From IMG/VR virus record IMGVR_UViG_3300009170_000007, positions 1 to 58,560 of that record: 58,560 nt of DNA. One strand, given 5' to 3'. Position 1 is the first letter of the stretch. Each line of letters begins with the position of its first letter. Source of the DNA: a virus. Taxonomy: Duplodnaviria; Caudoviricetes. Below the pieces are notes generated by a model, which was not told the DNA's origin, searched no databases, and saw only the letters and a program-made list of their open reading frames with translations. Shown one piece after another: positions 11,189 to 56,501 of this stretch. The position numbers were made by a program, and so were the translations under genes.

Positions 11189-11767
11189 ATGGCAACTACT
11201 GCTCGTAAGCGCGCTGACATCACTGTAGACTTCACCGGAGTTGAAGGTGGGGGTGGTGGACGGCTAGTTCCCGAGGGAGAGCATGTCCTCGAAGTCGTCG
11301 AAGTCGTCGAAAAGATGTCCCGCGACGACAACCCCTACTTGGGTTGGAAGTGGAAGGTTCACTCGGGTGACTACAAGGGTTCCGTGGTGTATGACAACAC
11401 CTCCCTTCAACCTCAGGCCCTTTGGCGTCTGAAGGGTTTGCTGGAGGCCATGGAAGTGGATGTGGCTGATGGAAAGCAGGGTCTCAATTTCGGAGAACTG
11501 AAGGGAAGAACCTGCCGTGTTGAAATCGCCCACGAAACTTACCAGGGGAAAGATAAGGCCCGTATCTCGGCATTCATCCTTCCGGAAATCCAGTCCTCTT
11601 CAGCTGAGCTGTACAAGAAGGGTGATAAGGTTACCTTCAGCAATGATGGGATCGACCTGGAAGGAGTGGTCATCAGTTGTACCAAGGGGAAAGTCGTCTT
11701 GAAGTTGACCGTCGATGGTGCGGAGGAGGAGTGGGAGTTGGACGCTGATGAACTGATCCCGTTCTAA
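11189..11767 (+). CDS. DUF669-like ssDNA-binding protein with extra C-terminal SH3-like domain
   Basis: VPEGEH, ALWRLKGLLEA, HETYQGK; acidic end with terminal IPF. Confidence 0.75.
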   Translation: MATTARKRADITVDFTGVEGGGGGRLVPEGEHVLEVVEVVEKMSRDDNPYLGWKWKVHSGDYKGSVVYDNTSLQPQALWRLKGLLEAMEVDVADGKQGLNFGELKGRTCRVEIAHETYQGKDKARISAFILPEIQSSSAELYKKGDKVTFSNDGIDLEGVVISCTKGKVVLKLTVDGAEEEWELDADELIPF

Positions 11768-49398: not shown

Positions 49399-50880
49399 CT
49401 ATACGGCGTATGGATTTCGGTGCGAGTGAGTAGTAGTGGCGTCGTCTGGGTCTACGTAGTCGTCTTCTTCCTCGGGCTCGTCGATGATGAGGAATCCTTG
49501 ATCTTTAGCGTACTGCATAGCTTGACTAAAGGTGTCGACTAGGTCGTCGTGATCAACCAAGGGGAAGGTACACACCTGCTCAACCAGGGGATCTACCCAA
49601 TTGCGCGGGTGTCCCGGATTCTTCTCTGATTCGGGTAGGAAGACCAGCCCATGACAGGGGAGATGAGAGACCGCGTGGAGACGTTCTACCTTGTCTGCGC
49701 GGCCAGGGTTGTATGCCCGGACTGGGATGACTGTTTGAAGCTCTTGACGCAGGGAGATTCCCGAGCCCTTATCTTCGATCAGAACGACGTCGGCTTTGCG
49801 GGCGTCACCCTCTGGACCATAGTAGGAGGTATCATACTCCTTCTTTACTCGCTGTCTTAGCTCTGGGAATCCTAGATGCTCGGTCCAGGCGTCGAGAAGG
49901 AGGATTCCGTAGCGGATATGGCTTGGGAGGGACGAGAAGTGAGTACGGATCGCGGGGGTGATCGCGAAGATGCCCCAGGTGGAGGACGCGGAGGGATCGG
50001 CTTCTTGCGTCTTGCGGTCTAGGGAGCGCTCGGTGAACGCCGTGTCATAGGACTGGATGATCAGCTCAAACTTCGGCGTAGGTAGAGTGTTGGGATAGAG
50101 ACGGAACCAGCCTTCTTGAATGATCCCTGACTCGCGGGGGTCGATCAACTCGGCGTGAAGCTCTTGTCGACCTAGGCGGGTGCCTTCGTACTGCGCGACT
50201 TGCCTGAAGAAGGGCTTGGCCAGGTTGGCTTTGTTCTCATAGGTAGAGCCAGTGGACACGACTACGGTGTCAGGCTCTTTCTTGGATTGCGCTATGAGCT
50301 TGCGAAGTAGGGGGATAGGCTTCGGTGTGGTGGATACAAAGACCTGAGGCAGGGTGCCCAAGCGTAGGCCGAACATGAGCTGATCCCAAACCTCTTGTGG
50401 ATAGGCCCAGGCGGCGATTTCATCGCACCAAGCGGCTGAGCACTGTGGTCCTCTAAGTCGTTCGGGCTCTTCAGCTGAGAACAGAAGAGCGGTGGCCCCG
50501 TTGGGAAAGGTCAATCGCCGCTTAGAAGGCTCGTACGTGGGCTTCTTGGAGGGGTGAGCGACGGAGAGGATGCCCGACTCACCGTCTACGCAAACGTCTC
50601 GGGTATCTGCGGTGGTCGGAGCGACGATGTGAATGCGTCGATGACCTTGCTCTACCCAGCGGAGGACTTGCTCGGCTCCAGCGCGGGTTTTGCCCCAACC
50701 TCGACCGGCAAGTGCAAGCCAGATCTCCCACGTCGTGGAGCGGTGAAGGGAGGAGTCAGGGTGGTCAGGGGGGAGCTGAGAGTGGCGAGCCCAGAGGGAC
50801 CAGTCGTGAATTAAGGCTGTGATCTCGTCGGGGGAAAGGTGCTCAATGTCCGCTAGGGTGAGTTCGCGGTCATTTCCCAC
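49399..50880 (-). CDS. terL: Terminase large subunit
   Basis: AGRGWGKT, LRGPQ, WCDEIAAW, STTPKP, SYDTA, IEDKGSG, HDDLVD. Confidence 0.95.
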   Translation of the reverse strand: MGNDRELTLADIEHLSPDEITALIHDWSLWARHSQLPPDHPDSSLHRSTTWEIWLALAGRGWGKTRAGAEQVLRWVEQGHRRIHIVAPTTADTRDVCVDGESGILSVAHPSKKPTYEPSKRRLTFPNGATALLFSAEEPERLRGPQCSAAWCDEIAAWAYPQEVWDQLMFGLRLGTLPQVFVSTTPKPIPLLRKLIAQSKKEPDTVVVSTGSTYENKANLAKPFFRQVAQYEGTRLGRQELHAELIDPRESGIIQEGWFRLYPNTLPTPKFELIIQSYDTAFTERSLDRKTQEADPSASSTWGIFAITPAIRTHFSSLPSHIRYGILLLDAWTEHLGFPELRQRVKKEYDTSYYGPEGDARKADVVLIEDKGSGISLRQELQTVIPVRAYNPGRADKVERLHAVSHLPCHGLVFLPESEKNPGHPRNWVDPLVEQVCTFPLVDHDDLVDTFSQAMQYAKDQGFLIIDEPEEEDDYVDPDDATTTHSHRNPYAV

Positions 50881-51247
50881 GGTTCAGGAGTCTCAGAAGC
50901 TTCTGGCGGGCGTCTTGATGAGCGGCTTCTTGCTCTTCTTTGGACAGAAGGGAGGAAGTGGTGGTGGATTTGGACCAGCGGGCGCGCATCTCCATCCAGG
51001 CTTGGGTCATTTGGGGGAAGTCACCCGAGGTGGCGAGATCGTGGAAGACTTTGGCTACGCGGAGGTTGGCCTCCTCTTCCGCGTGCTGGATCTCCTTCTC
51101 ATAGTACCGCTGGAGATCTGCGGAGGAGAGGTTCAAGTGTGCGGAGACATACTCGAGGGAAGCGCCCATACCGATGAGGACCTCGATTTGAGTCGAGTCT
51201 CGCTTATTGGGGTGCATCGGGACTGATGGGGTAGGCGCAGGGTTCAT
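50870..51247 (-). CDS. terS: Terminase small subunit
   Basis: HTH-like N-terminus, YY.KEI, ANLRVA..F..A..G, W...RARW; precedes terL. Confidence 0.8.
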   Translation of the reverse strand: MNPAPTPSVPMHPNKRDSTQIEVLIGMGASLEYVSAHLNLSSADLQRYYEKEIQHAEEEANLRVAKVFHDLATSGDFPQMTQAWMEMRARWSKSTTTSSLLSKEEQEAAHQDARQKLLRLLNRGK

Positions 51248-51253
51248 GTGGTT

Positions 51254-51283
51254 ATTTTACCGTGGGTTCTGGGGTCTTGTCCA
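51254..51283 (-). promoter_or_regulatory. Promoter of terS
   Basis: TGGACA-18 nt-TAAAAT, 6 nt before ATG. Confidence 0.55.
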
Positions 51284-51534
51284 CAAGTTTTCGTCTCAGT
51301 CGGTACACATAGGCTTTAGTGATGTTGTACTTCTTCATCATGTTGAGGGGAGAGCCCTTGGATTGGGCTATCTCGAGGAGTTCTTCGGGGGTTAGTCTGC
51401 GCATAGGGGTATTATACCCTATAGGGGTCTACTTGTATACTCTTTTTCTCTTTGAGCCCCGCGCTGCATGGCAGAACTCTAAGTTCAAGCGCTTTGGGGG
51501 GCGCTACCCAGGTGTCATGCAAGTTCAGGACATA

Positions 51535-51602
51535 GCCATATGCTGAGGCCATATGCCAGGTGGGTACGCCCATGCTGATGCCATATCACTGTGGCCCATG
51601 GA
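51535..51602. repeat. Cluster of short GCC(C)AT(AT)G repeats
   Basis: GCCATATGC at 51535 and 51548, GCCCATG at 51568 and 51594, GCCATATC at 51580. Confidence 0.55.
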
Positions 51603-51695
51603 CAAGCCGCTTGGGGTATGGTATACGCGCGCCCCCGCGCCCTCGCGCACAGTTGTTAAGTGTGGTCGGGGTATCAAAATAATTTGAGAAATATC

Positions 51696-51724
51696 CTGAC
51701 AGGAGGAGGGCAATACCTTATGAT
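51696..51724 (+). promoter_or_regulatory. Sigma70-type early promoter
   Basis: CTGACA-17 nt-TATGAT, followed by TTTGTCGGC as in the 8110 promoter. Confidence 0.7.
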
Positions 51725-51772
51725 GGGTTTGTCGGCAGGGAAAGGTCCCTGCCACTAACCGGAGATACTGCC

Positions 51773-52261
51773 ATGACCAAGCCCAAGAAGACCCTGCCCG
51801 CCAACCTGTGCGTGGCTTTCAAAAACCAGACCGGCGAACACACCGGTACCATCCTCGAGGACCGCGGCCTGTTCTGGAAGGTCCGCGACGACGCTGACGA
51901 GGAGTACCAGGTGAAGAAGACCAGCTGCACTGAGTGCGACCCGCCCACCCCGGTGGCTGGCACGCTGAGCGCCTCCCTGGCCTCCCTGATTAACGCTGAT
52001 CCCGCCCCCGCTGCGCCGGTGGAGAAGAAGGCCAAGGTCGAGAAGGACCCGGACCTCGTGACCCTGGCCGAACTGTGCGTCGAGCTCAGGATCGTCGGCC
52101 GGATCGCCCGCCGCCGCCTGCGCAAGGCCCTGGGTCAGGTTGGCACTGGCTCCCGCTGGGAGTGGAAGAAGGCCTCGGAGGAACTGGCCAAGGTCAGGTC
52201 CCTGCTGACCGTCGCCCCGCCTGTCGCCACCGCCCCCGAGGCTGACGCTGACGACGAGTAA
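51773..52261 (+). CDS. Early protein with C-terminal HTH-like domain
   Basis: GGAG RBS, strong GC3 bias; TLAELC..ARRRLRK..RWEW; acidic tail. Confidence 0.8.
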   Translation: MTKPKKTLPANLCVAFKNQTGEHTGTILEDRGLFWKVRDDADEEYQVKKTSCTECDPPTPVAGTLSASLASLINADPAPAAPVEKKAKVEKDPDLVTLAELCVELRIVGRIARRRLRKALGQVGTGSRWEWKKASEELAKVRSLLTVAPPVATAPEADADDE

Positions 52262-52291
52262 TCCAGGCAAGGTGGGGTAACCAATCCCCAC

Positions 52292-52345
52292 CTCCGTCCG
52301 GCGCTACCAGCGTCGCTGAAGAGCCTCAGCAAAGGCGAAACGGAG
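52292..52345 (+). ncRNA. Hammerhead ribozyme, type III
   Basis: CUCCGU-C, stem I CGGCGC/GCGUCG, CUGAAGA, stem II GCCU/AGGC, GAAA-CGGAG; complete catalytic core in an intergenic gap. Confidence 0.9.
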
Positions 52346-52348
52346 TAT

Positions 52349-53053
52349 GTGATGACTAACAATCGTGCGATCGAAAAGATCCAGAAGCTGCTGGCGCTGG
52401 CCAGTGACCCGGGCGCTGCGCCCCAAGAGGCGGAGACGGCAGCCCGTCAGGCGGCGTACCTGATGGCCCAGCATGACCTGGACCTGGGCGACCTGGCCGC
52501 AGTGGAGCTGGCGGCGCAGTGGGATATGACCACTCAGTCGGCTCAAGGCTGCAGACCGGGAAAGCGTAACGCGGTGGAGGTCCCGCCCTGGATAGGGATC
52601 ATCGCTTGGGGCGTCAAGATATTCACCCGGACCCGAGCTTCGAACGGCCTCGGCACTGTTACCTTCAAGGGACCCAGGGAGGACGTGGTCCTCGCCGTCT
52701 GGCTCCACGAATACCTCCTGCACCAGGCGTACGCAGCCAGTAAGGGCCTGGGCCTGGGTGAGGCTAACAGGTTCCGTAACGGATTCGCTAGCGCCCTCCA
52801 GGGGCGCCTGAAGGCTCTGGCCAAGGCCAGGGACACTGCGGACCAGGAGCTGACCGCCGGCAAGAGTGGCACTTCCTTGGTTCGGGTACAGGATGCTCGG
52901 AAGCAAGAGATGGACAAGTTCTTCGGTGACGAGGCCAGGGGACACACCTCCAAGGTCGGCCAGTCGATCGACGGTTACTTGGCGGGCCAGAAGGCAGCCA
53001 TCCCCACGAACCGCCCCCTGACCGGGTCTAGCAATCGTCTGCTGGGGAGCTAA
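52349..53053 (+). CDS. DUF2786-domain protein
   Basis: IEKIQKLLALA.DPGA.P.EA..A...A..LM..H; F..GF...L..RL; GY.AG. Confidence 0.85.
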   Translation: MMTNNRAIEKIQKLLALASDPGAAPQEAETAARQAAYLMAQHDLDLGDLAAVELAAQWDMTTQSAQGCRPGKRNAVEVPPWIGIIAWGVKIFTRTRASNGLGTVTFKGPREDVVLAVWLHEYLLHQAYAASKGLGLGEANRFRNGFASALQGRLKALAKARDTADQELTAGKSGTSLVRVQDARKQEMDKFFGDEARGHTSKVGQSIDGYLAGQKAAIPTNRPLTGSSNRLLGS

Positions 53054-53055
53054 TC

Positions 53056-53349
53056 ATGGACTACTCTGAGATCCTGGAGAGGGCGCAAGCCCTCGCCGAA
53101 GAGGCCCTGGCCACTGGCACTGAGTGGCCTGCGGAAAGGATGAACCTGGATAAGCGTATCGGCAAGCTGATCGTAGGGGAGACCTGGATCGCTGCACGCC
53201 GGGACACCATTAAGCGCCTCCGTTACTACGGTGGGTTCGAGTATATTGATGAAGAGTATCAGCTCGCCCTGGGCGACATGGTGTTCTACAGCCGGGATGA
53301 CGATCGGGTGGAGGCTGCCCTCATGAATCTTGAGTTCAACGAGGATTGA
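53056..53349 (+). CDS. Hypothetical protein
   Basis: GGAG RBS; LRYYGGFEY. Confidence 0.7.
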   Translation: MDYSEILERAQALAEEALATGTEWPAERMNLDKRIGKLIVGETWIAARRDTIKRLRYYGGFEYIDEEYQLALGDMVFYSRDDDRVEAALMNLEFNED

Positions 53350-53353
53350 TGCC

Positions 53354-53734
53354 ATGAAGACACTGATGCTGGCCGGCAAGGCCACACTAACCATCAAGAG
53401 TAAGAAGACAGGAGTACGCTACACGTACCGGTTCAATCGCCCTCCTGGGGATGATCCCGCACGCTGTGTCTGGGTCCGCGTCCTGACCGGACCTGACAGC
53501 TACAGGTATCTGGGCGTGCTTTGGCCTGACACCATGAAGTATCACCCCAAGGGTCAAGAGCCTAGCAGTCGAGCCATAGCTTGGGTGATCCAGACCCTGA
53601 AGGGCAGAGGGGAGGGAGCTCTCCTGGAGGATGTCGAGGTATGGCATGAAGGTAAGTGCTGCCGCTGCGGTCGCCAGCTGACCACGCCTGAGTCCATAGC
53701 CAGAGGATTGGGTCCGGAGTGCGCCTTAATGTAA
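53354..53734 (+). CDS. DUF6011-like zinc-finger protein
   Basis: C-terminal CCRCGRQLTTPESIARGLGPEC; GAGGA RBS before ATG 53354. Confidence 0.8.
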   Translation: MKTLMLAGKATLTIKSKKTGVRYTYRFNRPPGDDPARCVWVRVLTGPDSYRYLGVLWPDTMKYHPKGQEPSSRAIAWVIQTLKGRGEGALLEDVEVWHEGKCCRCGRQLTTPESIARGLGPECALM

Positions 53735-53752
53735 TCAAGCCTTGAAACAAGG

Positions 53753-53777
53753 TAGGCCCTACGGGGCCTATATTTTT
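53753..53777 (+). terminator. Intrinsic terminator
   Basis: TAGGCCC-TACG-GGGCCTA followed by TATTTTT. Confidence 0.8.
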
Positions 53778-54178
53778 GTGGGTACATATACCCACCACCC
53801 CACTAGTACGCGGGTTACTGAACGGCGCCCACTAACCAATTTGGTGCCATCTGGGGGCGCTGTTTCCAGTGGTTCCGAGTGGGAATTATTCCACTATGAT
53901 TTTTCTCACCAGTATTGAATAGCTAAGTTACTGATATATATACTTATTTTATTATCTTGAAGAGAAAAAGAGAAAAATAGGTAAAATATACAAGTTTCTT
54001 GCTGTATTTTTAACCCTATGATGATTGGGTATAAGTTATACCCCGCGCGCCCCACTGGGGGGATATTAAAATAAAAAAAAATATGTCTCCCCATCTATCG
54101 CTTTATAATCAGTGACTTACGCTAGTCTGGTGAGAAAAAAATTTCTCCCCAAGATAACCTTTGACCCATCATTGGAAA

Positions 54179-54419: not shown

Positions 54420-56501
54420 CTAACTACGCATTCCCAGCTTCCGGCGTACCCTCCGGAGCCAGCCAGCGTCGAATACAGCGATCTCTTCCTTACCCCCACC
54501 CGAGGTGCGCTTCACCCTACGTATAGCCCCAGGTAGCAAGAGGTCCTCCAGCTGTCGCTTGAAGTGGAGTCTCCGCTCACACCGAGCTCGACCACTCCAA
54601 GACACATATTCATCATACAACTTATTCACCCCCACATGGCCTTCCTCCCAATCAGAACCCCAATCCAGGAGGAACTGCGTCACACCAGCCACACCCTGCA
54701 CCATCTGGGATTCACGGCCATCTGTCCACGGGATCACCCCTGGCTTCCACCCCGACAGATCCATTCGGCGCAGGTCATACAACATCCGACCAAGTCCACC
54801 ACCCTCCACGCTCATTTGAGCCACCACCCTATCCCAGTAATCATGGTCTCCCACTCGACCACCCAATACCTTGGTGATGAAATACCGTCGATCACCCGCA
54901 TCCACCGGAACCACCCAGTCATGATTAGAGCAGACCCCCAACCCGATGCAATTGGCGATCGAGAATGAATCCCGACCTTTCATCTCGACCATCTTAGTCT
55001 TCTCCGTTATGAGCGTCTTCAGGACACCCTCACGAACCTTGTCTCCACCCCATGTCGCCTCATCCGCCAACACCAAACACTTGTTAGCCAGATGATAGTT
55101 GAACTTGCCAGCCAAGTGATCACCCTGGGTGACGGTCATGTAATGATCACCAAACAACTCGCCCAGCAGACGGAAGACCAAAGATTTCCCACACCCTGGC
55201 ACACCCACTAGCACTATGGCCGAACCTGGCACCTCCCATGGCCTCTGTACCCTATGCGCCATCCACCCCAATAGGTAATCCCGAAGGTCCTCTCTCTGGT
55301 GGCAGACATTGATCCAGAGATGTTCAAGAAACAGCTCCCACCCAACCCCAAAATCCCCTTCCTCTTCTTCAACTGCCCAGCCGCGCCACAGGTTGTACTC
55401 CCCACCCCCACTCTCAAGCCCAGGCTTAAACACCACACCACCAGGAAACTCACGACGATCAGGGTGACCCAGCCAGAACTTGTCAGCCGTCACTTCCCGC
55501 TCACCCGAAGTCACTCTTCTATTCGCCATAAGCAACGAAAAATCCGAGCGGGTCAGGAATGCCACTCCACCTCCACGCTGCTCCTGCAATACGCAGACTG
55601 AGCCGCCGTTCCTAATCACAGCATACTCGGCATTAAGCTGCTCTATCAGATCGCCAGCACCTAACTCAAGCCACTCGACCAAGGATTCGAAGCCCCGAAG
55701 TCCAAAGCCCGAACCCCCACTAACGCATAGCTCACGAAGCCGCTTCAGCCCAGGGACTCGACCTCCGCTCTCTAACTCTTCACGAAGCCTCTCACTCTTG
55801 AGACGCTTCTCACCTTCTTCATCCCCTGCCTCAATCAGTATCCCACGCAGGAACGAGTCTACATCCTCATCTTCCCAGCCACTGCGAACCATTGAACCCA
55901 CTAGGCAGACGGACATCTCATCTCTAGCCCCGCCATGCCAATCTCGTAACAACAGCGAAGCCGCAGCTAACCAGCGGACGGACCTCTCAAGGTTCTCAGG
56001 ATCTATCCCAGAGATCTCTTCCTCACCCATCCACTCTATAGGTTCGCCGGTGTCAGGGTGCACGCTACCAGGTCCCATCGTCTGTCCCGAAGCACGCAGC
56101 TCCAGCAACACCGACTTCTCATTCCGCTTGTCCCAACACATACGCTTACTGCTCTTCACTCCAGACCGGTAGATCATGTGAGTTACGGCACCGCCTCGAC
56201 CAAACCGAGCAGTAGTAGGCAGATAGTACTTGGCCAGAACGCGGGACTCCTCAGAGTCCAGATCTATATCAACGATGTCCCCGAATCCCCTACCTAACCG
56301 GATGCCGAAGTTGCTATCCCCACCCCCATGGCTCTCACTCCATTCCCAGATCTTCTCTTGGGCTTCTTCCTCAGTGATCTTCTGCCAAGCCCCATATCCT
56401 GGAGACTTCCCATGTAGTAGGGGTATAACACTTTTGATGCCTCGGTCATATAACTTCTGGACCTTAGGGTGAGTCTTATGTAGCCGGGTTACCGCACTCA
56501 T
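54420..56501 (-). CDS. Prim-pol primase fused to SF3 (D5-like) helicase
   Basis: NFGIRLG, DIDLD, H.IY, PGSVHP.TG..; GVPGCGKS Walker A, LADE Walker B, SNH, DRRY. Confidence 0.9.
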   Translation of the reverse strand: MSAVTRLHKTHPKVQKLYDRGIKSVIPLLHGKSPGYGAWQKITEEEAQEKIWEWSESHGGGDSNFGIRLGRGFGDIVDIDLDSEESRVLAKYYLPTTARFGRGGAVTHMIYRSGVKSSKRMCWDKRNEKSVLLELRASGQTMGPGSVHPDTGEPIEWMGEEEISGIDPENLERSVRWLAAASLLLRDWHGGARDEMSVCLVGSMVRSGWEDEDVDSFLRGILIEAGDEEGEKRLKSERLREELESGGRVPGLKRLRELCVSGGSGFGLRGFESLVEWLELGAGDLIEQLNAEYAVIRNGGSVCVLQEQRGGGVAFLTRSDFSLLMANRRVTSGEREVTADKFWLGHPDRREFPGGVVFKPGLESGGGEYNLWRGWAVEEEEGDFGVGWELFLEHLWINVCHQREDLRDYLLGWMAHRVQRPWEVPGSAIVLVGVPGCGKSLVFRLLGELFGDHYMTVTQGDHLAGKFNYHLANKCLVLADEATWGGDKVREGVLKTLITEKTKMVEMKGRDSFSIANCIGLGVCSNHDWVVPVDAGDRRYFITKVLGGRVGDHDYWDRVVAQMSVEGGGLGRMLYDLRRMDLSGWKPGVIPWTDGRESQMVQGVAGVTQFLLDWGSDWEEGHVGVNKLYDEYVSWSGRARCERRLHFKRQLEDLLLPGAIRRVKRTSGGGKEEIAVFDAGWLRRVRRKLGMRS

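What the first reader, a model, noticed from the sequence alone, without database searches (positions are those of the whole stretch)
52270..52354. Type III hammerhead ribozyme that sequesters the RBS of the next early gene
Seen: stem III 5' CUCCGU (52292-52297), cleavage-site C 52298 (GUC triplet), stem I CGGCGC/GCGUCG with loop UACCA, core CUGAAGA (52316-52322), stem II GCCU/AGGC with loop CAGCAA, GAAA (52337-52340) and stem III 3' ACGGAG. All conserved core nucleotides are present. The GGAG of stem III is the Shine-Dalgarno of the DUF2786 gene (starts 52349/52352). An upstream hairpin AGGUGGGG/CCCCACCU (52270-52293) overlaps stem III and would cap the 5' product. Inference: self-cleavage after 52298 splits the first early transcript, frees the RBS and leaves a 5'-OH end, making a natural ribozyme-gated translation or stability switch.
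Basis: partly seen in the sequence, partly recalled or inferred. Interest (0 to 1): 0.85.

Follow-up and report, generated by a model that had tools for sequence, protein, structure and literature searches.

The report
Phage hammerhead ribozyme overlapping a ribosome-binding site
A small self-cutting RNA (a type III hammerhead ribozyme) sits between two genes of a phage operon, with one strand doubling as the next gene's ribosome-binding site; it is a real, conserved example of a known kind of phage ribozyme, and its layout suggests a testable idea of what such ribozymes do.

Summary
Positions 52292-52345 (+) hold a complete type III hammerhead. All core nucleotides are present, and GGAG 52342-52345, in the 3' strand of stem III, lies 6 nt before the ATG of a DUF2786/DUF7168 gene.

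Rfam Hammerhead_3 scores it 38.0 bits. That is below the gathering score of 48.5, but it is the only hit in the window (E 1.2e-4). A covariance model built from 27 other phage hammerheads, without the window, scores it 54.3 bits (E 1.3e-13).

Two metagenome relatives (DUF2786 protein 85% identical) keep the hairpin and ribozyme at the same place. Of 76 nt, 71 are identical, and one stem II pair has changed on both sides. Relatives at 53-64% identity lack the ribozyme.

The element belongs to a phage class that sits 0-22 nt before a start codon and often directly after a GC hairpin. The Shine-Dalgarno lies inside stem III in only 5-7 of 30 members.

Most likely it is a constitutive cistron separator. 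Cleavage after C52298 leaves a hairpin-ended upstream RNA and a 5'-OH downstream RNA whose ribosome-binding site is freed. A regulated switch and "early" timing are unsupported. It is a new member of a known kind, of moderate interest.

The parts
51696..51724 (+). sigma-70-like promoter match (CTGACA-17-TATGAT); possible start of the + strand unit
   Evidence: consensus scan only, 10 of 12 positions; not evidence of function
51773..52261 (+). gene 1, 162 aa, no known family; the upstream cistron
   Evidence: no Pfam or PHROG hit; homologues at 42-45% aa identity in L002/L003 and 78-79% in L169/L170, each upstream of the DUF2786 gene; protein atlas gave only sub-0.9 leads
52270..52293 (+). GC hairpin (conserved part GGUGGGG/CCCCACC, 52271-52277 with 52286-52292, loop UAACCAAU); it abuts and overlaps the 5' strand of stem III and would be the 3' end structure of the upstream cleavage product
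   Evidence: read; the 5' product folds to it at -17.1 kcal/mol, z -3.31; stem and loop identical in L169 and L170, but the outermost A-U pair is not kept; not followed by a T run and not listed as a terminator
52292..52297 (+). hammerhead stem III, 5' strand (CUCCGU)
52298..52298 (+). cleavage-site nucleotide C17; the predicted scissile bond lies between 52298 and 52299
   Evidence: GUC triplet; the orthologues have GUA, also an allowed triplet
52299..52315 (+). stem-loop I (6 bp, loop UACCA)
   Evidence: across the class all 6 stem I pairs covary and 99.4% of cells are paired
52316..52322 (+). catalytic core strand CUGAAGA (C3-A9)
   Evidence: A52320 (N7) is C in the orthologues
52323..52336 (+). 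stem-loop II (4 bp, G10.1-C11.1 closing pair, loop CAGCAA)
   Evidence: the pair U52326-A52333 is C-G in L169 and L170, a change on both sides
52337..52339 (+). catalytic core GAA (G12-A14)
52340..52345 (+). stem III 3' strand ACGGAG; GGAG 52342-52345 is the Shine-Dalgarno of the next gene
   Evidence: GGAG is kept in L169 and L170 while the spacer to the ATG varies
52352..53053 (+). DUF2786/DUF7168 gene (233 aa from ATG 52352; an in-frame GTG lies at 52349); the downstream cistron
   Evidence: Pfam PF10979 E 7.9e-13 and PF23771 E 1.3e-9; phrog_421, function unknown; the N-terminus aligns with homologues that start at the corresponding ATG
53056..53734 (+). two further small genes of the same unit (53056-53349; 53330-53734 with DUF6011)
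53752..53781 (+). terminator-like hairpin plus T run; possible end of the unit
   Evidence: consensus scan only

Best explanation
The element is a genuine, probably active type III hammerhead ribozyme in the 90-nt spacer between gene 1 and the DUF2786 gene of a four-gene phage operon. It most likely works as a constitutive cistron separator, not as a regulated switch.

Proposed sequence of events (inferred, not shown):
1. Once the 3' strand of stem III is transcribed, the RNA folds and cuts itself between C52298 and C52299.
2. The upstream RNA then ends in the conserved hairpin plus a few nucleotides and a 2',3'-cyclic phosphate. That is a terminator-like protected 3' end made without stopping transcription.
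3. The downstream RNA starts with a 5'-OH followed by the compact stem-loops I and II.
4. The short 5' strand of stem III leaves, helped by the overlapping hairpin. This frees GGAG 52342-52345 for the ribosome, 6 nt before the ATG.

Pairing of the Shine-Dalgarno in stem III therefore imposes an order: cut first, then translate. It probably tunes expression of the DUF2786 gene, but it is a variable feature of this ribozyme class rather than its purpose.
For: **Identity**
- All core nucleotides and three helices are present.
- RF00008 gives E 1.2e-4 and is the only hit in the window.
- The model that excludes the window gives 54.3 bits, E 1.3e-13.

**Class-wide covariation.** In 28 sequences, 91.9% of cells are paired against 57.6% in shuffles (0 of 500 shuffles reach this). 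Sliding the partners gives 30-42%.

**Orthologous conservation**
- L169 and L170 have gene 1 at 78-79% and DUF2786 at 85% aa identity. They keep hairpin plus ribozyme at 71 of 76 nt.
- The flanks are far less alike: 16-18 of 31-40 nt upstream and 18-19 of 29 nt downstream.
- Their changes fall at H17 (C to A), N7, and one compensatory stem II pair.
- In L170 the plain minimum-free-energy fold is the canonical hammerhead.

**Position and layout in the class**
- 26 of 30 members not chosen by stem III sequence have a start codon 0-22 nt (median 13.5) after stem III.
- 15 of 31 have a stable hairpin abutting stem III, against 5 of 31 control windows.
- Downstream genes are unrelated to each other.
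- Several phages carry 2-3 such ribozymes, and one gene is bracketed by a type III and a type II hammerhead.

**Established knowledge (passages read)**
- Prophage hammerheads flank genes and cut polycistronic RNAs in vitro and in vivo (PMC3088659).
- 5'-OH RNAs are poorer RNase E substrates (PMC8495972).
- Engineered ribozymes that pair the SD in a stem give 5- to 100-fold more reporter when active than when inactive (PMC5052635).

**Release of the cut strand.** The stem III duplex after cleavage is only -9.1 kcal/mol.
Against: **No direct evidence of expression or cleavage.** No RNA run holding the locus was listed, so nothing here bears on expression or cleavage either way.

**Rfam score.** The score is below the family's gathering score. 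The genome tool's control at E<=1 'rings' in 3 of 14 ordinary genomes, so sub-threshold Hammerhead_3 hits do occur by chance.

**Folding predictions**
- ViennaRNA folds of the window's own sequence replace stem II with an alternative helix, GCUGA/UCAGC.
- With 55 nt of coding sequence added, they prefer a long-range pairing. The hammerhead-constrained fold is 7 kcal/mol worse.
- Neither alternative is supported by the changes seen in the orthologues.

**Tertiary contact.** No loop I-loop II pseudoknot can be drawn for the window's ribozyme, although many class members can form 3-4 bp. Fast cleavage at cellular Mg2+ is therefore not assured.

**Dispensability.** Relatives at 53-64% identity have the same gene pair without a ribozyme, so it is dispensable for expressing DUF2786.

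**Unmeasured steps.** The stabilising roles of the hairpin and the 5'-OH end are inference from general RNA-decay knowledge and were not measured here.
Confidence: 0.6

Rival explanations
1. Active ribozyme, but the overlap with the Shine-Dalgarno has no effect. The ribozyme only sets RNA ends and differential stability, and GGAG lies in stem III because the phage packs the spacer tightly and the sequence of stem III is free to vary.
For: - The SD lies outside stem III in 23-25 of 30 class members.
- L135 has three ribozymes that abut start codons with no SD at all.
- L169 has a C.A mismatch opposite the SD while keeping GGAG.
- Spacers in the class are almost filled by hairpin, ribozyme and ribosome-binding site.
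Against: - SD-in-stem-III recurs in unrelated members: L011, L145 with a 10-bp stem III, L150, and with one bulge L138 and Roseobacter phage CRP-125.
- Engineered ribozymes show that such pairing strongly depresses translation of uncleaved RNA (PMC5052635).
Confidence: 0.2
2. A true regulated switch. Cleavage, and so translation or stability of the DUF2786 message, would be modulated by Mg2+, by temperature, by a ribosome competing for GGAG, or by a factor that binds the fully conserved hairpin.
For: - Stem III's 3' strand is the last part to be transcribed, so binding of the small ribosomal subunit and ribozyme folding could compete (inference).
- The hairpin overlaps stem III by 1-2 nt, so the two helices are partly exclusive.
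- The hairpin loop is identical in all three orthologues.
- No obvious tertiary contact is visible, which could make cleavage slow and tunable.
Against: - No ligand-binding or sensor domain is present.
- The predicted alternative structures are not conserved.
- Natural prophage hammerheads tested so far cleave efficiently during transcription (PMC3088659).
- Three close orthologues are too few to read meaning into loop identity.
Confidence: 0.1
3. An inactive relic or a fortuitous hammerhead-like motif with no self-cleavage.
For: - The Rfam score is below the gathering score.
- The single-sequence fold is weak (z -1.75 for 52292-52346).
- One class member (L147:5087-5140) has a degenerate core, so decay does happen.
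Against: - The core is intact and kept in the orthologues, with changes only at permitted positions plus a compensatory pair.
- The model without the window gives E 1.3e-13.
- Chance expectation of the core pattern is 0.01 per window.
- All inspected class members score below Rfam's cut-off (32-44 bits). The cut-off therefore fits this phage class poorly.
Confidence: 0.05
4. The ribozyme serves something other than operon expression. Examples are an RNA of a mobile or selfish module, production of a discrete small RNA, or ends that evade or trigger a host RNA-based defence.
For: - The ribozyme comes and goes between related phages: present at 85% identity, absent at 53-64%.
- It lies in a stretch richer in G+C (57-60%) than the genome mean of 52%.
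- The biological role of bacterial and phage hammerheads is stated to be unresolved (PMC6765202).
Against: - There is only one ribozyme in the window, so no unit-length RNA is excised.
- No repeats or integrase were seen next to it.
- The consistent placement directly before start codons points to messenger RNA function.
Confidence: 0.05

Closest known systems
Hammerhead ribozyme, type III (Rfam RF00008; clan CL00010)
   Same: The three-helix junction has stems I and II capped by loops and stem III open. It has the full consensus core (CUGANGA, GAA, A15.1-U16.1, G10.1-C11.1, GUH cleavage triplet) and aligns end to end with the model.
   Different: It scores 38.0 bits, below the 48.5 gathering score, as do the other phage members inspected (32-44 bits). 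The stems are GC-rich. The loops do not show the pseudoknot that many relatives can form. It is DNA-encoded in a tailed phage, not in a viroid, satellite or repeat.
Prophage and phage hammerheads that flank genes in polycistronic transcripts (Perreault et al. 2011, PMC3088659; abstract and passages read)
   Same: It is intergenic in phage DNA, and the neighbouring genes are not constant. Relatives carry several ribozymes per phage (L135 three, L134 and L142 two each, L145 type III plus type II). The expected outcome is a cut operon RNA.
   Different: That paper's main text does not mention a Shine-Dalgarno or ribosome (0 occurrences). It reports one haloarchaeal virus variant 13 nt before a start codon. 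The regular layout seen here (hairpin, ribozyme, ribosome-binding site) and the SD inside stem III were not found in the passages I read.
Engineered ribozyme expression platforms that hide the Shine-Dalgarno in a ribozyme stem (hammerhead design cited in, and twister version tested in, PMC5052635; passages read)
   Same: The SD is base-paired in a helix of a self-cleaving ribozyme in a bacterial 5' leader. Cleavage releases the short complementary strand and exposes the SD.
   Different: Those are synthetic and ligand-controlled through an added aptamer. By my recollection the hammerhead versions use an extended stem I. Here the arrangement is natural, uses stem III, has no aptamer, and lies between two cistrons.
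Self-cleaving ribozymes just upstream of ORFs in eukaryotic RNA viruses (PMC13725137; abstract and passages read)
   Same: A small ribozyme fills an intergenic untranslated region with its cleavage site a few nucleotides before the next start codon, and is linked to translation of that ORF.
   Different: Those are type I hammerheads in RNA genomes of fungal and plant viruses with eukaryotic translation. No Shine-Dalgarno is involved.

Membership tests
Hammerhead ribozyme (type III, RF00008) | Conserved catalytic core: C3 U4 G5 A6 N7 G8 A9, G12 A13 A14, the A15.1-U16.1 pair, and a cleavage-site nucleotide H17 that is not G | tested here: met
   CUGAAGA 52316-52322, GAA 52337-39, A52340-U52297, C52298. 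The orthologues keep all of these and vary only N7 and H17 (C to A). The core definition is from established knowledge and matches the Rfam consensus line shown.
Hammerhead ribozyme (type III, RF00008) | Three helices around the core; for type III, stems I and II are closed by loops and stem III is open to the flanks; G10.1-C11.1 closes stem II | tested here: met
   Stem I 6 bp, stem II 4 bp beginning G52323-C52336, stem III 6 bp.
Hammerhead ribozyme (type III, RF00008) | Score at or above the family's curated gathering threshold | tested here: not met
   38.0 bits against 48.5. The six class members that Rfam scored reach only 32-44 bits, so the threshold is not diagnostic for this phage class. 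E 1.2e-4 in the window.
Hammerhead ribozyme (type III, RF00008) | Helices supported by covariation in relatives | tested here: met
   Class alignment A1: stem I 6 of 6 pairs, stem II 2 of 3 and stem III 5 of 7 pairs change on both sides; 0 of 500 shuffles reach the observed pairing. Within the orthologues, U-A changes to C-G in stem II. Caveat: most class members were collected with a pattern taken from this element's core and loop II.
Hammerhead ribozyme (type III, RF00008) | Tertiary contact between loops or stems I and II, needed for fast cleavage at low Mg2+ | tested here: inconclusive
   No loop I-loop II helix longer than 1 bp for the window, whereas many class members can form 3-4 bp (GCU/UGCU with AGC/AGCA) (the script mis-parsed three rows). 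Non-Watson-Crick contacts cannot be assessed here.
Hammerhead ribozyme (type III, RF00008) | Site-specific self-cleavage giving 2',3'-cyclic phosphate and 5'-OH ends | not testable with these tools
   No RNA run holding the locus was listed. Needs a bench assay.
Ribozyme-masked ribosome-binding site (works like the engineered SD-sequestering ribozyme platforms) | The SD is base-paired within a ribozyme helix before cleavage, and its partner strand is on the other cleavage product | tested here: met
   GGAG 52342-45 pairs with C52292-C52295, which lie 5' of the scissile bond. The local fold 52270-52346 forms stem III. If the 8-bp hairpin forms fully, only GG stays paired.
Ribozyme-masked ribosome-binding site (works like the engineered SD-sequestering ribozyme platforms) | The masking is conserved among relatives | tested here: inconclusive
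   Kept in L170 but weakened by a C.A mismatch in L169. In the class, 5 of 30 members have the SD in contiguous stem III, or 7 of 30 with one bulge allowed.
Ribozyme-masked ribosome-binding site (works like the engineered SD-sequestering ribozyme platforms) | Translation depends on cleavage, or on a ligand that controls cleavage | not testable with these tools
   No aptamer-like domain is present. Needs a reporter assay.

The most novel reading that the evidence does not exclude
Tailed phages carry a widespread class of type III hammerheads that standard Rfam annotation misses. The class forms a three-part cistron-separator module of GC hairpin, ribozyme and ribosome-binding site. Self-cleavage would make a hairpin-capped 3' end for the upstream message without terminating transcription. 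It would also make a 5'-OH, structure-capped 5' end for the downstream message. In roughly a quarter of lineages, this phage included, the Shine-Dalgarno is one strand of stem III, so translation of the next gene is licensed only by cleavage. That would be a natural counterpart of the synthetic SD-masking ribozyme devices, and a concrete answer to what phage hammerheads are for.
Probability: 0.3. Interest if true: 0.7.

Novelty: new member of a known kind. Interest (0 to 1): 0.5.

Why it matters
Hammerheads have been known in phage and prophage intergenic regions since 2011. A 2019 review and a 2026 paper still call their roles undetermined or elusive (PMC6765202; PMC13725137).

This locus and its relatives give a regular, checkable layout:
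- the ribozyme sits immediately before the ribosome-binding site;
- it often follows a hairpin directly;
- it sometimes uses the Shine-Dalgarno as a helix strand.

That turns the vague idea of 'mRNA processing' into specific predictions about RNA ends, cistron half-lives and cleavage-dependent translation.

A cultured phage with the same layout, Roseobacter phage CRP-125, offers a system in which to test them.

There is also a practical point. Every inspected member scores below Rfam's Hammerhead_3 threshold, and one lies inside an annotated coding sequence. Such ribozymes are therefore probably under-annotated in phage genomes.

Tried and rejected
**Searches that found nothing useful**
- The default Rfam scan of the window gave no hit.
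- blastn of the locus against cultured phages gave no match for the 1.7-kb stretch. The 99-nt spacer gave only a 23-nt chance hit.
- No RNA holder was listed among the sequencing runs.
- Contigs of four DNA runs laid on the locus show the same phage with an identical ribozyme, so they give no variation to use.
- The protein atlas gave only leads below 0.9 for gene 1.

**Relatives without the ribozyme**
- Seven viral loci and eleven metagenome loci with DUF2786 relatives at 53-64% identity have no hammerhead by Rfam or by model R1.

**Patterns that misfired**
About 108 rows were one conserved Streptomyces stretch that is not a hammerhead, and ten more looked like chance matches.
- The strict pattern returned 9 stretches, of which only L038 and L095 are hammerhead-like.

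**Ideas rejected**
- The hairpin as an intrinsic terminator: it has no T run and is not listed.
- A specific link between the ribozyme and DUF2786: the downstream genes of the class are unrelated, and no paper holds both 'hammerhead' and 'DUF2786'.
- The long-range pairing of 52298-52311 with 52387-52400 as a switch: -22 kcal/mol in the window but about -12 in the orthologues.
- The alternative helix GCUGA/UCAGC: the orthologues' U-to-C change is compensated in stem II, not in that helix.

**Rows dropped before counts**
- Exact duplicates: L133, L144, L146, L147:4059, L149, L151, L156.
- The degenerate L147:5087-5140.

**Sources not available**
- Jimenez et al. 2011 is not held.
- Paper supplements are closed, including the alignments and figures of Perreault et al. 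2011 that may already show this layout.
Full report
**1.

Reading 52100-52520 confirms every element at the stated coordinates.
- Stem III is CUCCGU 52292-52297 paired with ACGGAG 52340-52345.
- The cleavage triplet is GUC, ending at C52298.
- Stem I is 52299-52304 with 52310-52315, loop UACCA.
- The core strands are CUGAAGA 52316-52322 and GAA 52337-52339.
- Stem II is 52323-52326 with 52333-52336, loop CAGCAA.
- GGAG 52342-52345 lies 6 nt before ATG 52352. An in-frame GTG lies at 52349.
- The hairpin 52270-52277/52286-52293 overlaps stem III by two bases.

The downstream ORF is DUF2786 plus DUF7168 and belongs to phrog_421, of unknown function. Homologues begin at the equivalent ATG with GGAG-type sites 7-8 nt upstream. 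GGAG is therefore the Shine-Dalgarno by position.

**2. It is more than chance**

- The bare core pattern occurs once in the window, against 0.01 expected.
- Rfam's default scan reports nothing, because Hammerhead_3 scores 38.0 bits against a gathering score of 48.5.
- At the E-value threshold it is the only match in the window at E<=1 (E 1.2e-4). Locally E is 4.3e-7.
- One caution: the genome tool's control shows that sub-threshold Hammerhead_3 hits at E<=1 occur in 3 of 14 ordinary genomes.
- I therefore built an independent model. It uses 27 hammerheads from other viral and genome contigs, with the window left out (A2, R1).
- R1 scores the window's element at 54.3 bits, E 1.3e-13. The next best hit in the window is 12 bits, E 0.4.

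**3. Context**

- The window is a whole IMG/VR virus record of 58,560 bases, with estimated completeness of 92%.
- It is a tailed phage. DNA polymerase lies on the + strand; portal and large terminase on the - strand; a primase at 54420-56501 on the - strand.
- Mean G+C is 51.8%. The stretch 50-54 kb is richer, at 57-60%.
- The ribozyme lies in a short + strand unit. A promoter-like site is at 51696-51724. Gene 1 is 51773-52261, then the 90-nt spacer, then DUF2786 52352-53053, then two small genes. A terminator-like hairpin with a T run is at 53752-53781.
- The promoter and terminator are consensus matches only.
- 'Early' timing is not shown by anything I ran.

**4. Orthologues**

*Distant relatives.* Seven viral loci with DUF2786 relatives at 54-64% identity lack any hammerhead. 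Two of them (L002, L003) keep the gene 1 homologue upstream. L003 has a different hairpin in the spacer.

*Close relatives.* The metagenome scan added two closer relatives, L169 and L170. Their DUF2786 protein is 85% identical and gene 1 is 78-79% identical. Both carry the ribozyme at the same place (48.9 and 52.3 bits). The other eleven loci, at 53-62%, do not.

*Changes in the orthologues.*
- Hairpin plus ribozyme is identical at 71 of 76 positions.
- The adjacent coding flanks agree at only 16-18 of 31-40 positions upstream and 18-19 of 29 downstream.
- C17 becomes A, and GUA is also cleavable.
- N7 changes from A to C.
- The pair U52326-A52333 becomes C-G, a compensatory change in stem II.
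- In L169 only, U52293 becomes C. This puts a C.A mismatch opposite the SD while GGAG itself is kept.
- The spacer between GGAG and the ATG varies.

This pattern is what a functional ribozyme whose 3' strand is also an SD should show. It also shows that full pairing of the SD is not strictly maintained.

**5. The class**

*How the set was collected.*
- A pattern free in stem III, but fixing the core and a CAGCA loop II, found 29 viral stretches. These gave 27 distinct ribozymes including the window.
- A pattern fixing the window's stem III found L009, L010 and L011, and L038 and L095 in genomes.
- R1 then found further copies that no pattern had chosen (L134:1000, L135:11694, L142:3757), plus a degenerate one in L147.
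- blastn with a class member, followed by R1, found a full member in the cultured Roseobacter phage CRP-125 (68.3 bits).

*Covariation.* On the 28-sequence alignment, 91.9% of cells pair against 57.6% in shuffles (0 of 500). Slid controls give 30-42%. All six stem I pairs covary. The caveat is that the patterns fix the core and some closing pairs.

*Rfam coverage.* On seven of these loci Rfam scored six type III members, all at 32-44 bits and below its cut-off.

*Downstream genes.* They are unrelated to each other.

**6. Layout statistics**

The set is 30 ribozymes not chosen by stem III sequence. Related sets were not collapsed: window/L169/L170, L136/L137/L158, L152/L155, L132/L159, L135a/b.
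- 26 have a start codon opening an ORF of at least 40 codons (or one that runs to the contig end) 0-22 nt after stem III, median 13.5.
- The four without one include one at a contig end.
- 22 have an SD-like word of at least 4 nt.
- The SD has at least 3 nt inside contiguous stem III in 5: window, L170, L011, L145, L150.
- That rises to 7 if one bulge or mismatch is allowed, adding L138 and CRP-125.
- L135's three ribozymes abut start codons with no SD.

Separately, among 31 ribozymes, 15 have a hairpin of -8 kcal/mol or better ending within 4 nt of stem III. In control windows 70 nt upstream the figure is 5 of 31.

The class signature is therefore 'right before the ribosome-binding site, often right after a hairpin'. 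SD-in-stem-III is a recurrent minority variant.

**7. Mechanism**

*Shown.* Sequence, conservation, covariation and layout.

*Inferred.* The steps below.
1. Co-transcriptional folding and cleavage occur after C52298.
2. The 5' product folds into the hairpin (-17.1 kcal/mol, z -3.31). The hairpin also draws in part of the released stem III strand.
3. The remaining intermolecular stem III is weak (-9.1 kcal/mol), so the products should part and free GGAG.
4. The downstream RNA then begins with a 5'-OH and two hairpins.

*Supporting knowledge from papers.*
- 5'-OH ends are poorer RNase E substrates (PMC8495972).
- Engineered ribozymes with the SD in a stem raise expression 5- to 100-fold when active (PMC5052635).
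- Prophage hammerheads cut polycistronic RNAs in vitro and in vivo (PMC3088659).

*Evidence against.*
- ViennaRNA does not recover stem II for the window's sequence.
- With coding sequence added it prefers a long-range pairing.
- That pairing is not conserved, and L170's minimum-free-energy fold is the canonical hammerhead.
- No loop-loop pseudoknot is apparent for the window, so the cleavage rate is uncertain.
- No RNA data exist for the locus.

**8. Comparison and novelty**

*What the literature shows.*
- Hammerheads in phage and prophage intergenic regions, flanking varied genes, are established (PMC3088659).
- Their role is called unresolved in a 2019 review (PMC6765202) and elusive in a 2026 paper (PMC13725137).
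- My searches and the passages read found no description of a natural hammerhead whose stem III is the SD, or of the hairpin-ribozyme-RBS layout.
- Supplements were closed and Jimenez et al. 2011 was not held. This absence is therefore weakly established.

*Classification.* I file the element as a new member of a known kind, with a class-level layout worth testing.

**9. Verdict**

- Observation: confirmed.
- Interpretation: partly supported. The ribozyme, the SD overlap and the hairpin cap hold. A regulated switch and 'early' timing do not.
- Confidence that it is a real hammerhead is about 0.9.
- Confidence in the constitutive separator mechanism as stated is 0.6.
- Interest is 0.5.

Noticed in passing
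L012-L131 (genome contigs), e.g. L013:3776-3828: About 108 Streptomyces and related genomes share a nearly invariant stretch of about 53 nt. It lies just upstream, on the opposite strand, of a gene whose first codons are also conserved. It matched my relaxed pattern but is not a hammerhead: it has an extra A before GAAAC and no stem I. It is an unidentified conserved leader or intergenic element.
   Followed up: no
L145:220-284 (-) and L145:526-581 (-): A 78-codon gene (L145:283-519) is bracketed by two ribozymes. A type III hammerhead with a 10-bp stem III containing the SD lies upstream. A type II hammerhead (RF02276, 41.1 bits, above its cut-off of 37) lies immediately downstream.
   Followed up: partly
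L135:9729-9785, 11223-11279, 11694-11750 (-): One viral contig has three type III hammerheads in successive spacers. For two of the three the stop codon of the previous gene touches stem III. In all three the next ATG follows stem III by 0-2 nt, and no Shine-Dalgarno is recognisable.
   Followed up: partly
L166:1447-2223 (Roseobacter phage CRP-125, OR420743.1 38141-38917): The annotated CDS gp49 starts upstream of the hammerhead and runs through it (L166:1475-1531). An in-frame ATG at L166:1546, with GAGG 8 nt before it, looks like the real start. CCUCUA upstream pairs with UAGAGG, extending stem III over that SD.
   Followed up: partly
window 50001-54000: This stretch has 57-60% G+C against 51.8% for the whole phage. 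It holds the small + strand unit with the ribozyme, so the unit may have been acquired separately.
   Followed up: no
L003:1409-1473: A relative without the ribozyme has a long imperfect hairpin in the equivalent spacer between the gene 1 homologue and the DUF2786 gene. It may be a different processing or stabilising element at the same place.
   Followed up: no
window 52298-52311 with 52387-52400: There is strong complementarity (-22 kcal/mol) between stem I of the ribozyme and the codons for the KLLALA motif of the DUF2786 gene. It is not conserved in L169 or L170, so it is probably fortuitous.
   Followed up: yes
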